Below are positions 17,518-53,142 of a DNA stretch of 64,000 nucleotides, piece after piece. A program made the translations under genes and the position numbers. The notes beneath the pieces were generated by a model that saw only the letters and a list, made by a program, of their open reading frames with translations, did not search any database and had not been told where the DNA came from. The stretch's first letter is position 1; every line of letters starts with the position of its first letter. Origin of the DNA: Candidatus Heimdallarchaeota archaeon (GTDB lineage Archaea > Asgardarchaeota > Heimdallarchaeia > JABLTI01); NCBI GenBank assembly GCA_019058275.1, contig JAHLVW010000094.1:32001-96000 (forward strand), in the 5' to 3' direction.

Positions 17518-19080
17518 TTGACAGAAAAAAATGTACCATGGACAGAACTTTATCGTCCAACAAATTTAGGTCAAGTAGTAGGAAATGAAGATGCAATTGA
17601 AGCTTTGAGAGATTGGTTTGATTCATGGTCACCAAAAGCAAAACGGAAAGTTGCCTTATTACATGGACCTGCTGGAACAGGAAAAACTAGTAGTGTTATA
17701 GCACTGGCTACTGAAAGAGGTTATGAACTCGTTGAAATGAATGCTAGTGATAAACGTAATAAAGATGCAATTTTGAGAATAGCAGGCAGCTCAGCAAAAG
17801 AAGGGACCTTAACTGGAGGAACAACTGGTAAACGGATTCTGTTAATAGACGAAGTTGATGGTATAACTGGGAGAGAAGATAGAGGAGGAGCAAAATCATT
17901 AGTTGATGTAATAAAGGAAGCCGCAGTACCTATCATCTGTACAGCAAATAATGCCTATCACAAAAAACTGAAAGCACTTAGGAAAGAATCAAAAGTGATT
18001 TCTTATCACCCCATTCATCAAGAGTATATTCTCAAAGTTTTGAAGAAAATAAGTAGAGATCAGAAATTAGAGCTTACATCTGAGGATTTTAACTTCATAG
18101 CAGAAAATGCTCATGGTGATTTAAGAAGTGCTATCAATGATTTAGAAGGCATGGTTTTACAAATTCGAAGTGGAAAAATATCTGATATTGAGTTATTAAA
18201 ACCTTATAGAGATAAAACAAAGGGAATACAAGAAGCATTAGTAGATATATTTAATGCTCAGGATTTTATTGAAGGTAAAAAAGCAGTAGATGGCTTAAAA
18301 ATCAAATATGATGAGCTACTTTTATGGGTATTCGAAAATGCTTACCTTCATTCCAGTGACCAACAGCTTGCTGAAGTTTATGAGACCCTTGCTTCAGCTG
18401 ATCGATTTCTAGGAAGAATAATGCGTAGACAAAGTTGGAATCTTCTTTCATATTTCTTTGATTTAGTATCAGGTGGAGTAGCAGTTGATGTTGATCGTCC
18501 AGGAAAGAATATTAAACAATATATTTTTCCTCAAAAAATCGGTATGTATGCACAAACAATGTTTACAAGAGCTCTGAGAGATTCCATTGCATCAAATATC
18601 GCTGAGAAAACTCACACTTCAACAATAGCTGCTAGAGGAGAATCGATGCATGTAGTTAAGCAAATACTCAACAGTGGTATTGGTGATGCAGCACAAATGG
18701 CTTATTGGTTAGAATTAGATGAGAATCAATTAAAATCACTAATAGAAAACCAAGAATCTATCAGGAAAATAAAGAAAGTAATGAAAGCCTATGATAAGGA
18801 AAAAATGAAGCTGCAAACATCAATGGGTGACCAAAGATTCTCAAGTTTTGATGATACAGGTGATAATTGGTCAGATATCTTAATTGAATACGAAAAGAAG
18901 AAAGAAGAGAAATTAGCTGAAGAAAAACGTAGAAAGGAAGAAGAGAAAAAACGAAAAGCTGAAGAAAGAAAAGCTAAAAAAGCTGCTGCAAAGAAAGAAG
19001 TTAAAAAAACAAAGCAAGTAGATGATCAAGATTTAGAAAAGAAAGCCAAAAAACAAGCATCTCTTGATCAATATTTCTAA
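17518..19080 (+). CDS. rfcL: Replication factor C large subunit
   Basis: PWTELYRP, GPAGTGKT, EMNASD, IDEVD, GDLRSAINDL, PIP box QASLDQYF. Confidence 0.95.
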   Translation: MTEKNVPWTELYRPTNLGQVVGNEDAIEALRDWFDSWSPKAKRKVALLHGPAGTGKTSSVIALATERGYELVEMNASDKRNKDAILRIAGSSAKEGTLTGGTTGKRILLIDEVDGITGREDRGGAKSLVDVIKEAAVPIICTANNAYHKKLKALRKESKVISYHPIHQEYILKVLKKISRDQKLELTSEDFNFIAENAHGDLRSAINDLEGMVLQIRSGKISDIELLKPYRDKTKGIQEALVDIFNAQDFIEGKKAVDGLKIKYDELLLWVFENAYLHSSDQQLAEVYETLASADRFLGRIMRRQSWNLLSYFFDLVSGGVAVDVDRPGKNIKQYIFPQKIGMYAQTMFTRALRDSIASNIAEKTHTSTIAARGESMHVVKQILNSGIGDAAQMAYWLELDENQLKSLIENQESIRKIKKVMKAYDKEKMKLQTSMGDQRFSSFDDTGDNWSDILIEYEKKKEEKLAEEKRRKEEEKKRKAEERKAKKAAAKKEVKKTKQVDDQDLEKKAKKQASLDQYF

Positions 19081-19137
19081 TCAATTTGATAATGTTTACC
19101 AAATAATATTGCTATTATTATTTGAGGGAATAATGTT

Positions 19138-19305
19138 TTGAATTCAAAATATTGAATCATTAAAGCAATAGGTTTTGCATTCGGAACAATTTTGCTAATT
19201 TTACTTTATCCAGTTACTGCTATTATTCGACTCTTTCGATCCAAAAGACATGATGAGAGTATTAACAAATCAATAAGAACCGGGCAATATGGATATGACT
19301 ATTAG
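19138..19305 (+). pseudogene. Small single-TM ORF interrupted by an in-frame TGA at codon 6
   Basis: TTG start after GAGGG; reads MNSKY*IIKAIGFAFGTILLILLYPVTAIIRLFRSK...YDY. Confidence 0.3.
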
Positions 19306-51760: not shown

Positions 51761-52189
51761 TTGATTAAAATGGCTGAAACAAAAAGAATGGCTATTGTTG
51801 TACATTCTGGTACATTAGATTTAGCCTATCCACCATTAATGCTTGCTGCTGCAGCGGGTGCATCTGATATGGAAGTTGATATGTTCTTCACATTTTGGGG
51901 ATTAAATCTCTTAAAAAAGAAAGGATTAAAAAGAGCAAAACTTTCTGGTGCATGGCGACTTGGTACAGGCATGATGAAATTGATGATTAAAAGAACAGGA
52001 ATGGCTTCTCTACCTGAATTGCTAGAAGCTGTTATTGATACTGGTAAAGTAAGACTCTATGCTTGTACTGCTACAATGGATATTATGATGGTTAAAAAAG
52101 AACAATTGATACCAGAAGTAACAGGTTTCATGGGAGCAGCTGGATTTTTAGATATTGCTGCAGATTGTGATATACAATTATTCATTTAA
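51761..52189 (+). CDS. DsrE2-like (DsrE/DsrF/DrsH-like) protein
   Basis: FFTFWGL, YACTATM, GAAGFL. Confidence 0.88.
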   Translation: MIKMAETKRMAIVVHSGTLDLAYPPLMLAAAAGASDMEVDMFFTFWGLNLLKKKGLKRAKLSGAWRLGTGMMKLMIKRTGMASLPELLEAVIDTGKVRLYACTATMDIMMVKKEQLIPEVTGFMGAAGFLDIAADCDIQLFI

Positions 52190-52201
52190 GGTGAAAGCAA
52201 A

Positions 52202-52444
52202 ATGTCTGATATGCCCACTCCAGACAAAACACTTGATGCTCGTGGATTCCAATGTCCTATGCCAATTTTAAAGGCTAAGAAAACCATCCAAAGTATGAAA
52301 ACAGGACAAATTCTTGAAGTTCTTTCTGAAGATCCTGGATCAAAAGAAGATTTTCCACGATGGGCAAAACGTACAGGTAATGAATTACTAGGTATTTTTG
52401 ATGAAGAAGATTATACTCGTTATTTCATAAAGAAGACAGTATAA
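52202..52444 (+). CDS. tusA: TusA/SirA sulfurtransferase
   Basis: LDARGFQCPMP, DPGS..D...W. Confidence 0.92.
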   Translation: MSDMPTPDKTLDARGFQCPMPILKAKKTIQSMKTGQILEVLSEDPGSKEDFPRWAKRTGNELLGIFDEEDYTRYFIKKTV

Positions 52445-52532
52445 ACATCTTCTATACCGTTTTTTCTATTTTTTAAGGTTAAAAATAAGTGGAATTTGAG
52501 CTTTAATCAAACACTCATTTATACCAAAAAAA

Positions 52533-52548
52533 CGGTAAACTTTAAAAA
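52533..52548 (+). promoter_or_regulatory. BRE/TATA promoter of the permuted 5S precursor
   Basis: CGGTAAAC-TTTAAAAA; the predicted TSS near 52572 coincides with the start of the outer stem. Confidence 0.6.
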
Positions 52549-52571
52549 GTGAAGATTACTCGAAAGACTAC

Positions 52572-52727
52572 GCAGAAACTCATCGCCGGAAGTTAAGCCT
52601 TCATACGTTATGTTAATTACTGATCTGAGCGATCGTTCGGGAACAACATAAAGCTGCGTCTCGACGCGGTCAAAGCTGGAGGGTAACACCCGGACTCGTC
52701 CGATCCCGGAAACGATGAGTTTCGTGC
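52572..52727 (+). repeat. Processing stem with relaxed BHB motif flanking the 5S
   Basis: GAAACTCATCG (52575-85) pairs perfectly with CGATGAGTTTC (52713-23); direct repeat CCGGAA at 52586 and 52706. Confidence 0.88.
52592..52711 (+). rRNA. rrf: 5S rRNA, circularly permuted gene (3' half 52592-52660, TC linker, 5' half 52663-52711)
   Basis: Reordered sequence GACGCGGUCAAAGCUGGAGGGUAACACCCGGACUCGUCCGAUCCCGGAA|GUUAAGCCUUCAUACG...GGGAACAACAUAAAGCUGCGUC folds into helices I-V with a GCGA loop D. Confidence 0.9.
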
Positions 52728-52788
52728 TATCAGACTTTCATTATCTCTTTAACTATTAGAAAATAAAATTTGGATGAGATTGTCTTAG

Positions 52789-53142
52789 TTAAGACTCATC
52801 CTCAACATCAAAAGCAATTTTGCCAGCTTCTTTAGTAAATAATGAAAAATCTATTGTATGTTTGCCTAGTTCTAATTTTCCACTCACTTTAAAAGTAAAA
52901 GTGTCCCCCTTGGTCAATTTAAAGGGATTCTCTTCTGATATACTATCCAAATTTATCTCTTTTTCATTGACAATAACTTTGATTTTACTAGCATCAAATT
53001 CCTTTTCATCAATTTTCAAAGGATCTAAACCAATAATTGTTGCAGGATAAATGGTGTTCAATAATTGAAATGAGATTTCTTCTCCCTCTTGTTTTAAGCT
53101 TCCTTTTAGATAGAGTTTCTTCAACATAAATTTTGGAATCAT
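52789..53142 (-). CDS. Conserved hypothetical beta-sandwich protein
   Basis: P.F.LKKLY.KGSL N-terminal motif recalled from archaeal hypothetical proteins; function unknown. Confidence 0.6.
   Translation of the reverse strand: MIPKFMLKKLYLKGSLKQEGEEISFQLLNTIYPATIIGLDPLKIDEKEFDASKIKVIVNEKEINLDSISEENPFKLTKGDTFTFKVSGKLELGKHTIDFSLFTKEAGKIAFDVEDES

What the first reader, a model, noticed from the sequence alone, without database searches (positions are those of the whole stretch)
52572..52727. Circularly permuted 5S rRNA gene built as a BHB 'intron', predicted to mature into a 120-nt circle
Seen in sequence: the 5S halves are in reverse order. The 3' half (GTTAAGCC...GCTGCGTC, 52592-52660) comes first, then a 2-nt TC linker, then the 5' half (GACGCGGT...GATCCCGGAA, 52663-52711). 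Helix I (52653-60/52663-70) is therefore closed as a hairpin, probably by a CUCG tetraloop. Helix II (52677-82/52598-603), helix V (52608-14/52645-51) and GCGA loop D (52629-32) all pair. The unit is enclosed by a perfect 11-bp stem (52575-85/52713-23), a 4-bp CCGG/CCGG helix (52586-89/52706-09) and 3-nt segments 3' of it on each strand (AAG 52590-92, AAA 52710-12). This is a relaxed BHB with no clear inner helix. A TATA box sits about 25-30 nt upstream. Established: archaeal splicing endonuclease cuts after the 2nd bulge nucleotide and excised pieces are circularised (RtcB-type ligation); permuted tRNA genes and the permuted, circularised Thermoproteus SRP RNA use this route. Inference: cuts at 52591/2 and 52711/2 release exactly 120 nt, and ligation regenerates the conserved CCCGGAA|GUUAAGCC. 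The ribosome would carry a covalently closed 5S, or one re-opened at the helix I loop. I know of no described genomically permuted 5S gene, and linear models would miss or split it.
Basis: partly seen in the sequence, partly recalled or inferred. Interest (0 to 1): 0.96.

Follow-up and report, generated by a model that had tools for sequence, protein, structure and literature searches.

The report
Permuted, ring-forming Asgard 5S rRNA gene
This Heimdall-group Asgard archaeon encodes its only 5S ribosomal RNA back half first between tRNA-splicing-type cut signals, and environmental RNA contains the predicted cut-and-rejoined 120-nt form, which explains why standard tools find no 5S gene in most Asgard genomes.

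Summary
Window 52592-52711 is a circularly permuted 5S rRNA gene: 3' half, CUCG tetraloop closing helix I, then 5' half. An 11-bp outer stem, a 4-bp CCGG/CCGG helix and two 3-nt bulges enclose it. Rfam finds no 5S in the window or the genome, only two abutting weak hits. The reordered sequence gives one full-length hit to a canonical Asgard 5S profile. The native order gives two hits in swapped order. In 33 relatives the permuted fold is 95.5% paired, and 24 of 34 pairs show compensatory changes. The flanking stem covaries across lineages. Contigs from four metatranscriptomes cover only 52586-52711. They carry the predicted junction ('goes back 120') and are 148-150 nt long, which is 120 + k-1, a closed cycle. 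In a 151-genome Asgard sample, 81 genomes have the permuted gene and 48 a canonical one. None has both. The genome encodes two EndA paralogues and RtcB. Still open: whether the ribosome holds the ring or a re-opened form. No archaeal permuted 5S gene turned up in the literature searched. This scan has found the same feature before on other DNA (at least 64 genomes).

The parts
52526..52548 (+). Candidate archaeal promoter: a purine-rich BRE-like run followed by the TATA-like TTTAAAAA at 52541-48. It lies about 27-34 nt upstream of the outer stem.
   Evidence: The block AAAAACGG(T/C)AAACTTTAAA is conserved at the same distance upstream in 12 loci of the same family. Its function and the transcription start are inferred, because no precursor reads were seen.
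52575..52585 (+). 5' strand of the outer processing stem (GAAACTCATCG).
   Evidence: It pairs perfectly with 52713-23, with pair probabilities of 0.94-1.0 in the precursor ensemble. In other lineages the stem is kept at 9 of 9 bp with entirely different sequences.
52586..52589 (+). Leader strand of the 4-bp central BHB helix (CCGG). It copies the 5' strand of helix III.
   Evidence: It pairs with 52706-09. The fold that contains this helix is -54.1 kcal/mol against an MFE of -55.9. Across lineages the helix changes on both strands: CGUG/CACG, CUGG/UCAG, CCGC/GCGG, CGGG/CCCG.
52590..52592 (+). 5' bulge AAG, with the predicted cut at 52591|52592.
   Evidence: It lies 3' of the central helix, as in known BHB substrates. 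RNA contigs begin to match at the duplicated CCGGAA and contain no leader sequence.
52592..52660 (+). 3' half of the 5S rRNA: 3' side of loop B, 3' strand of helix II (52598-606), helix V (52608-14/52645-51), loop E, helix IV (52620-28/52633-40), loop D GCGA (52629-32) and the 3' strand of helix I (52653-59).
   Evidence: RF00001 aligns AAGUUAAGC...GGGAA here. The canonical-5S HMM matches positions 45-118. Covariation is shown.
52660..52663 (+). CUCG tetraloop that closes helix I where a normal 5S has its two ends.
   Evidence: The sequence shows it directly. Relatives have UUCG, UGCG, UACG, CACG or CUCG, or short extended hairpins, at this place. RNA contigs run straight through it.
52663..52711 (+). 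5' half of the 5S rRNA: 5' strand of helix I (52664-70), loop A, 5' strand of helix II (52675-82), helix III (52690-93/52706-09) and loop C.
   Evidence: The canonical-5S HMM matches positions 4-51. Covariation is shown.
52710..52712 (+). 3' bulge AAA, with the predicted cut at 52711|52712.
   Evidence: The RNA joint runs from 52705 to 52586 with 6 letters that fit either side, which equals 52711|52592. Loose ends in X2 and X3 read GTTAAGCCT... directly after 52711.
52713..52723 (+). 3' strand of the outer processing stem (CGATGAGTTTC).
   Evidence: It pairs with 52575-85. Three further pairs, 52572-74 with 52725-27, follow a 1-nt bulge in the MFE fold.

Best explanation
This is the organism's functional 5S rRNA gene in circularly permuted order. 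It is transcribed on its own, probably from the conserved TATA-like element at about 52541. In the precursor, leader and trailer pair into an 11-bp stem. A leader copy of the helix III 5' strand (CCGG) pairs with the helix III 3' strand. This gives a 4-bp helix with a 3-nt bulge 3' of it on each strand, which is a bulge-helix-bulge motif without an inner helix. The archaeal splicing endonuclease cuts in both bulges, and an RtcB-type ligase joins the ends of the excised 120-nt piece. The join restores the universal CCCGGAA-GUUAAGCC continuity of loop B, and helix III can then form. The old 5S ends stay closed by a tetraloop, so the product is a covalently closed 120-nt ring with the normal 5S three-arm fold.

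Shown: the permuted order, the 5S fold with covariation, the covarying processing stem, the ligated junction in RNA, the absence of leader and trailer from that RNA, and the absence of any canonical 5S gene. Inferred: the identity of the enzymes, the exact cut register, and that the ring itself (my estimate about 50%) rather than a re-opened form sits in the ribosome.
For: There is no RF00001 hit at gathering score in the window or the genome, only two abutting weak hits that meet at 52662.

The reordered sequence gives one full-length hit (68.4 bits) to an HMM of 12 canonical Asgard 5S genes and is 60-70% identical to most of them (52.5% to one). The native order gives two partial hits in swapped order.

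On 33 permuted genes from three families of the class, 95.5% of cells are paired, 24 of 34 pairs change on both sides, and the covariation score is 0.667 against 0.225 in shuffles and 0.05-0.16 for slid partners.

The covariance model R1 built on the permuted order scores the window at 125.8 bits, and it is the only match in the genome.

The BHB keeps its geometry while its sequence changes in lineage after lineage. In the 26 loci counted, 24 distinct outer-stem 9-mers give a mean of 7.8 of 9 bp, against 4.0 for mismatched leader-trailer pairs.

RNA contigs from four metatranscriptomes of four studies cover only 52586-52711. The joint 'goes back 120' appears in X1, X3 and X5. The matching loose ends appear in X2 and in a second, related sequence in X3. 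Contig lengths are 148-150 nt, which is 120 + 30.

In a 151-genome phylum sample, 81 genomes carry the permuted gene, 48 carry a canonical one and none carries both. The closed genome of Ca. Heimdallarchaeum aukensis has two permuted copies and no canonical gene.

The genome encodes two EndA paralogues and one RtcB.

A precedent exists: the permuted SRP RNA of Thermoproteus is cut by the splicing endonuclease and circularised (PMC4731332).
Against: No enzyme assay was possible, and no raw reads were available. Logan contigs cannot show RNA ends, strand or relative abundance. The RNA data therefore prove that the ligated junction exists, but not that the bulk of 5S is circular or that the ring is in ribosomes.

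The BHB lacks an inner helix, and in the MFE fold of the precursor the leader CCGG pairs elsewhere. The BHB fold is 1.8 kcal/mol less stable, and its central pairs have only about 0.06 ensemble probability.

The circular fold of the 120-mer is not more stable than shuffled sequences (z = -0.69), so the support comes from covariation, not from energy.

All four RNA runs read G at 52661 where the window has T, so they come from a close variant rather than from this exact genome.

The genome is a 92.8% complete MAG, so a canonical gene on an unassembled piece cannot be strictly excluded for this one genome.
Confidence: 0.87

Rival explanations
1. The ring is only an intermediate. After ligation it is re-opened in the helix I loop, as permuted tRNA genes are matured by RNase P and tRNase Z, and the ribosome carries a conventional linear 5S.
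For: The route is known for permuted tRNA genes of Cyanidioschyzon (cited in PMC4267664). Circular 16S and 23S were long regarded as intermediates (PMC12918454). Contigs cannot show RNA ends, so linear molecules opened at 52660-63 would go unseen as long as some ring or precursor supplies the loop-spanning 31-mers.
Against: The two halves are joined by tight, stable tetraloops (UUCG, UGCG, CUCG, UACG) with no spacer and no recognisable processing signal. The RNA graph closes into a single 150-nt cycle that includes the loop in four runs. Engineered 5S with its native ends joined works in bacterial ribosomes (PMC7283268, seen as abstract only).
Confidence: 0.3
2. The functional 5S is a linear permuted molecule with its ends at 52592 and 52711, as in brown-algal mitochondria. 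The ligated junctions would then be a minor by-product or a step in degradation, like the rare circles of canonical 5S reported in Sulfolobus.
For: A linear permuted 5S exists in brown-algal mitochondria (PMC4267664). Low-level 5S circles of unclear meaning were reported in Sulfolobus and Halobacterium (PMC3326292).
Against: The break lies inside the universally conserved CCGGAA-GUUAAGC strand next to helix III. The precisely built, covarying BHB has no purpose without cleavage and ligation. The junction 31-mers were abundant enough to close the assembly graph in all four runs, and none of the contigs on this sequence ends at 52592 or 52711.
Confidence: 0.08
3. It is an assembly artefact or a dead gene fragment, and the real 5S lies elsewhere or was not assembled.
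For: The genome is a MAG of 118 contigs, 92.8% complete with 6.8% contamination.
Against: The same order appears in 37 independently assembled loci among the nearest relatives, including closed chromosomes, and in dozens of further Asgard genomes. Purifying selection is evident from the compensatory changes. The RNA is expressed and processed. No canonical 5S occurs in any genome that has the permuted one.
Confidence: 0.01

Closest known systems
Permuted SRP RNA gene of Thermoproteus tenax / T. uzoniensis (Plagens et al. 2015, eLife, PMC4731332)
   Same: An essential structured non-coding RNA is encoded in permuted order. [quoted passage not shown] Standard searches missed the canonical gene.
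   Different: The RNA is different (SRP RNA, not a ribosomal RNA). That case is confined to one crenarchaeal genus and arose by recent rearrangement. Here the permutation is conserved across most Asgard lineages sampled. Here the enzymes and the function of the ring are not tested.
BHB-dependent excision and circularisation of archaeal 16S and 23S pre-rRNA, including circular or permuted 23S in ribosomes (PMC12918454; PMC7758197)
   Same: A processing stem formed by leader and trailer carries a BHB. The rRNA is the excised 'intron' and is circularised. The ring may persist in the ribosome.
   Different: Those genes are collinear with the mature RNA, so ligation is not needed to build the fold. 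The literature states that 5S is not processed this way. Here ligation is obligatory to restore a conserved strand of 5S.
Circularly permuted tRNA genes of Cyanidioschyzon merolae (Soma et al. 2007, as cited in PMC4267664)
   Same: The 3' half is encoded before the 5' half. A BHB forms between leader and trailer, and there is a circular intermediate.
   Different: The tRNA ring is re-opened at the intervening sequence to make normal ends. Here the intervening sequence is only a tetraloop. The organism is a eukaryote (nuclear genes).
Permuted mitochondrial 5S rRNA of brown algae (mtPerm-5S; Valach et al. 2014, PMC4267664)
   Same: It is a 5S rRNA whose helix I is a closed hairpin and whose ends lie elsewhere.
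   Different: In that case the ends lie at the junction of two domains and stay open, so the final product is permuted too. There is no BHB, no ligation and no ring, and the gene is organellar. Here the break lies between helix III and helix II and is sealed.
Low-level circular forms of canonical 5S rRNA in Sulfolobus and Halobacterium (Danan et al. 2012, PMC3326292)
   Same: Circular 5S molecules were detected by permuted RNA-seq reads in archaea.
   Different: Those genes are in canonical order and the circles join the normal ends. They are rare, were not validated by RT-PCR and may reflect degradation.

Membership tests
5S rRNA (Rfam RF00001) | Scores at or above the family's gathering threshold (38 bits) as one collinear match. 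| tested here: not met
   The native order gives 18.3 and 13.9 bits as two abutting matches. This is what a permuted gene should give. The Rfam model could not be run on the reordered sequence.
5S rRNA (Rfam RF00001) | Full-length sequence homology to canonical 5S once the two halves are reordered. | tested here: met
   nhmmer with an HMM of 12 canonical Asgard 5S genes gives one hit over positions 4-116, 68.4 bits, E = 3e-23. Identity is 60-70% to most of the 12 genes, 52.5% to one.
5S rRNA (Rfam RF00001) | Three-arm fold (helices I to V, loops A to E) supported by covariation, with the conserved loop E/loop D region and the AAGUUAAGC motif. | tested here: met
   Of 34 pairs, 95.5% of cells are paired and 24 show compensatory changes. 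All five helices are supported. The motifs are invariant.
5S rRNA (Rfam RF00001) | It is the 5S component of the 50S subunit. | not testable with these tools
   The support is indirect. It is the only 5S-like gene in the genome, and it is mutually exclusive with canonical 5S across 151 genomes.
BHB substrates of the archaeal splicing endonuclease | A 4-bp central helix flanked by two 3-nt bulges on opposite strands, each 3' of the helix. | tested here: met
   CCGG/CCGG with AAG and AAA. The same geometry with other sequences is found in most of the lineages examined, with one mismatch in the 4-bp helix in some.
BHB substrates of the archaeal splicing endonuclease | Flanking helices on both sides (strict hBHBh'). 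| tested here: not met
   The outer helix is present (11 bp). No inner helix follows the 5' bulge, since UUAAG faces GAUC. This is a relaxed, bulge-helix-loop-like form. From memory, such forms are cut by heteromeric endonucleases.
BHB substrates of the archaeal splicing endonuclease | Cleavage by EndA in both bulges and ligation by RtcB. | not testable with these tools
   The genome encodes two EndA paralogues (191 and 196 aa, each with N and C domains) and one RtcB. The RNA junction fits the predicted cuts.
Permuted RNA genes rescued by circularisation (Thermoproteus SRP RNA type) | The gene halves are in swapped order, and the RNA contains the junction that restores the canonical order. | tested here: met
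   One search shows the order. One search shows the joint 'goes back 120' in X1, X3 and X5, and the matching loose ends in X2 and X3.
Permuted RNA genes rescued by circularisation (Thermoproteus SRP RNA type) | The mature functional molecule is a covalently closed circle. | tested here: inconclusive
   Contigs of 148-150 nt equal 120 + k-1, which is a closed cycle running through both the junction and the helix I loop. Contigs cannot exclude linear forms.
Permuted mitochondrial 5S (mtPerm-5S) | Ends at the junction of two domains that stay open, with no ligation. | tested here: not met
   The break point is different (between helices III and II), and the junction is ligated in RNA.

The most novel reading that the evidence does not exclude
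Most Asgard archaea, including all Heimdall/Hod-group families sampled, build their ribosomes with a covalently closed circular 5S rRNA. It is made from a permuted gene that arose once. All lineages share the same break point and the same BHB design. This makes ribosome biogenesis depend on the tRNA-splicing enzymes. It also provides a rare genomic change that splits Asgard lineages into permuted and canonical groups. If eukaryotes branch within the permuted group, their canonical 5S gene would have to be a reversion.
Probability: 0.4. Interest if true: 0.95.

Novelty: new variant of a known kind. Interest (0 to 1): 0.88.

Why it matters
It explains why standard tools (Rfam, and by inference the annotation pipelines that use such models) find no 5S gene in most Asgard genomes, closed ones included. 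That gap affects genome-quality grading, which asks for a 5S gene. A model built on the permuted order (R1 here) recovers the gene at 40-130 bits.

It would be the first ribosomal RNA gene known to need cutting and re-joining by the tRNA-splicing machinery before it can fold.

It raises the prospect of a ring-shaped 5S in the ribosomes of the closest archaeal relatives of eukaryotes. That would fit recent reports of circular 23S in archaeal ribosomes.

The clean split between permuted and canonical families within the phylum is a discrete character. It could be laid on Asgard and eukaryote phylogenies.

Tried and rejected
I used an HMM of canonical Asgard 5S genes instead.

The IUPAC pattern scan of genome contigs was too loose. 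It stopped at 120 rows, most of them chance bacterial hits or canonical 5S genes. It was useful only for organism names and as a source of loci to score with R1. It is not a census.

Weak R1 hits outside Asgard (Bathyarchaeia, Woesearchaeota, Methanomicrobiales, Thermoplasmata, actinobacteria) proved to be canonical 5S genes. I found no permuted 5S outside Asgard in what was searched.

The one 'canonical' RF00001 hit in the class (G036, 38.4 bits) is in fact a permuted gene, scoring 98.8 bits with R1 at an overlapping place.

I tried to name the families with canonical 5S (f10, f16, f19) and to find a cultured strain in family f13 by a class-wide search.

The sigma-70 promoter and terminator scan does not apply to archaea.

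Folding energy alone does not support the structure (z = -0.69 for the ring).

The MFE fold of the precursor does not show the BHB. Only the constrained fold does.

The RNA contigs give no cover of leader or trailer. Taken alone that is not evidence.

Full report
**Observation.** A 69-nt stretch (52592-52660) carries the 3' part of a 5S rRNA: AAGUUAAGC, helices V and IV, loop E, the GCGA loop D and the 3' strand of helix I. A 49-nt stretch (52663-52711) follows with the 5' part: the 5' strand of helix I, CAAAG, helix II, helix III and loop C. Helix I is 7 bp closed by a CUCG tetraloop. An 11-bp perfect stem (52575-85/52713-23), a 4-bp CCGG/CCGG helix (52586-89/52706-09) and two 3-nt bulges (AAG, AAA) enclose the unit.

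**Is it a 5S?**
- Rfam at gathering score finds only a tRNA in the 64-kb window.
- With relaxed thresholds RF00001 aligns the 3' half well and pads the rest (18.3 bits).
- In the whole 4.1-Mb genome the only RF00001 matches are this one and an abutting one of 13.9 bits.
- I could not feed a reordered sequence to Rfam. Instead I took 12 canonical 5S genes from other Asgard families, built an HMM and ran nhmmer.
- The reordered sequence gives one hit over positions 4-116 (68.4 bits, E = 3e-23).
- The native locus gives two hits in swapped order: positions 4-51 at 52665-52712 and positions 45-118 at 52586-52661.

**Conservation and covariation.**
- The locus is 86-94% identical over the aligned parts in all 11 other genomes of the family. 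It is about 65-70% identical, and collinear, in two further families of the class.
- On an alignment of 33 cores (A1) the permuted 5S structure is 95.5% paired.
- 24 of 34 pairs show changes on both sides. The covariation score is 0.667, against 0.225 in shuffles (0 of 500 reach it) and 0.05-0.16 when partners are slid.
- All five helices are supported, including the closed helix I and the long-range helix II.
- A covariance model of the permuted order (R1) scores the window at 125.8 bits. That is the only match in the genome.

**Taxon and distribution.**
- Contig lengths tie the handles to public records. G016 is Ca. Heimdallarchaeum aukensis PM71 (CP084166). Same-genus genomes are records labelled Heimdallarchaeota or Promethearchaeati. 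The window therefore comes from a Heimdallarchaeia MAG with 33% GC.
- R1 finds full-length matches of 88-126 bits in records named Heimdall-, Hod- and Odinarchaeota, Atabeyarchaeia-1, Asgardarchaeum abyssi and others.
- In a 151-genome sample of the phylum, 81 genomes have a permuted gene. These include all six Heimdallarchaeia families, the Odin-like family and about 15 other families. Another 48 genomes have a canonical 5S above the Rfam cut-off, concentrated in families f10, f16 and f19. None has both.
- Seven weak R1 hits (31-38 bits) overlap canonical genes.
- Weak R1 hits outside Asgard are canonical 5S genes.
- All permuted genes share the same break point, and all join the halves by a tetraloop or a short hairpin.

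**The processing motif.**
- In lineage after lineage the leader ends with [outer strand]-[4 nt]-[3 nt], and the core ends with [4 nt]-[3 nt] followed by the complementary outer strand.
- The outer helix is 9 of 9 bp in most lineages, with at least 24 different sequences.
- The central helix changes on both strands (CCGG/CCGG, CGUG/CACG, CUGG/UCAG, CCGC/GCGG, CGGG/CCCG). The bulges are A-rich.
- The bulges lie 3' of the central helix on each strand. This is the topology of tRNA-intron and pre-rRNA BHB motifs (established knowledge).
- There is no inner helix, so the 5' cut site is loop-like.
- The leader CCGG copies the helix III 5' strand. The BHB and helix III are therefore alternative pairings of 52706-09, and helix III can form only after excision.
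- In the precursor ensemble the outer stem has probability near 1. The BHB-containing fold is 1.8 kcal/mol above the MFE.
- The genome has two EndA paralogues with both domains, and one RtcB.
- Canonical Asgard 5S genes differ. They have a TATA-like element within about 20-35 nt upstream of the gene and a T-run soon after it, and no such stem.

**RNA evidence.**
- Of the runs that hold part of the stretch, 17 are on record as RNA.
- Contigs of four runs (three wetland, one sediment, four studies) laid on 52500-52800 cover only 52586-52711.
- In X1, X3 and X5 a contig 'goes back 120', from 52705 to 52586. Six letters fit both sides, so this equals 52711|52592.
- In X2 the loose ends read the end of the 5' half before 52586 and GTTAAGCCT after 52711.
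- In X3 a second, related sequence shows the same junction.
- The contigs are 148-150 nt long, which is 120 + 30. A closed cycle in a k = 31 graph gives this length. They also run through the helix I loop.
- The ligated junction therefore exists in RNA, and leader and trailer are absent from the assembled RNA.
- Contigs cannot show ends or abundance, so 'ring in the ribosome' remains an inference. The spacer-free tetraloops favour it.

**Literature.** Searches for permuted or circular 5S in archaea or Asgard found no description of such a gene. A 2026 paper states that 16S and 23S, 'but not 5S', are circularised. The closest precedents are:
- the permuted SRP RNA of Thermoproteus;
- permuted tRNA genes, and the brown-algal mitochondrial permuted 5S, which is not ligated;
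- rare circles of canonical 5S.

**Earlier notes of this scan.** The scan has flagged the same feature in at least 64 other genomes, with the same reading. A later check there priced 'the ring is the ribosome's 5S' at 35 in 100. That kept my own estimate for this step near one half.

**Verdict.** This is a real, expressed, processed, permuted 5S rRNA gene. It is a new variant of a known mechanism (a permuted RNA gene rescued by BHB cleavage and ligation) and is widespread in Asgard archaea. The open question is the final topology of the 5S in the ribosome.

Noticed in passing
window 52661: All four RNA runs read G where the window has T, in the second position of the helix I tetraloop (CUCG becomes CGCG). 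A same-genus genome (G009) has G there. A strain variant is the simplest reading, and editing cannot be judged without matching DNA.
   Followed up: partly
L044 (Heimdall AB_125), L024 (Ca. H. aukensis copy a), L047, L023 and L199 (Atabeyarchaeia-1): leaders of the permuted 5S: In these loci (clearest in L044, L024 and L199) a 20-25-nt hairpin sits in the leader between the outer stem and the central helix. It is flanked by a duplicated half-site, for example outer-CAG-AAA-hairpin-CAGG-AAA-core, or in Atabey-1 outer-CGTG-AGA-hairpin-CGTG-AGA-core. This could be a three-way junction or a nested, two-step BHB (an intron-like piece removed from the ring).
   Followed up: partly
L020 (G015:C30, about 19077-19225); L216 and L217 (family f13): Some permuted 5S genes are about 149-150 nt long. 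G015 has an insertion of about 29 nt in loop C with a small hairpin and a repeated CATTCCG. Several f13 genes carry an insertion of about 30 nt. These may be expansion segments or mini-introns.
   Followed up: no
L024 and L050 (Ca. Heimdallarchaeum aukensis CP084166); G036 contigs C77, C90, C106, C132: The closed H. aukensis genome has two permuted 5S copies with different flanks. G036 has four identical copies, at least three of them at contig ends. One of them is the only 'canonical' RF00001 hit of the class (38.4 bits), which is really a permuted gene.
   Followed up: partly
L200-L211 (families f14, f16, f19, f27): Canonical Asgard 5S genes have a TATA-like element within about 20-35 nt upstream of the mature 5' end and a T-run soon after the 3' end. 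They have no leader-trailer stem or BHB.
   Followed up: yes
L149 (JBHLQZ010000003.1, labelled Candidatus Thorarchaeota QM1B.68): This contig carries a permuted 5S (123 bits with R1) that is nearly identical to those of Heimdallarchaeaceae genus g7. Either the label or the binning may be off.
   Followed up: no
L232:1207-1782 (+) and L233:1474-2064 (-), own genome: There are two splicing-endonuclease paralogues of 191 and 196 aa, each with an N-terminal and a catalytic domain. The second also shows weak Sen15/Sen54-like matches. This suggests a heteromeric enzyme.
   Followed up: partly
window 51761-53142: The 5S gene stands alone, not in an rRNA operon. It lies between DsrE-like and TusA genes upstream (+ strand) and a small ORF with an HMG-CoA-reductase N-terminal-like domain downstream (- strand).
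   Followed up: partly
L190 (Asgardarchaeum abyssi), about 20 nt downstream of the trailer stem: A tRNA-like sequence (GGGGCCGTGGTGTAGCC...) starts directly after the permuted 5S unit. The two may be co-transcribed.
   Followed up: no
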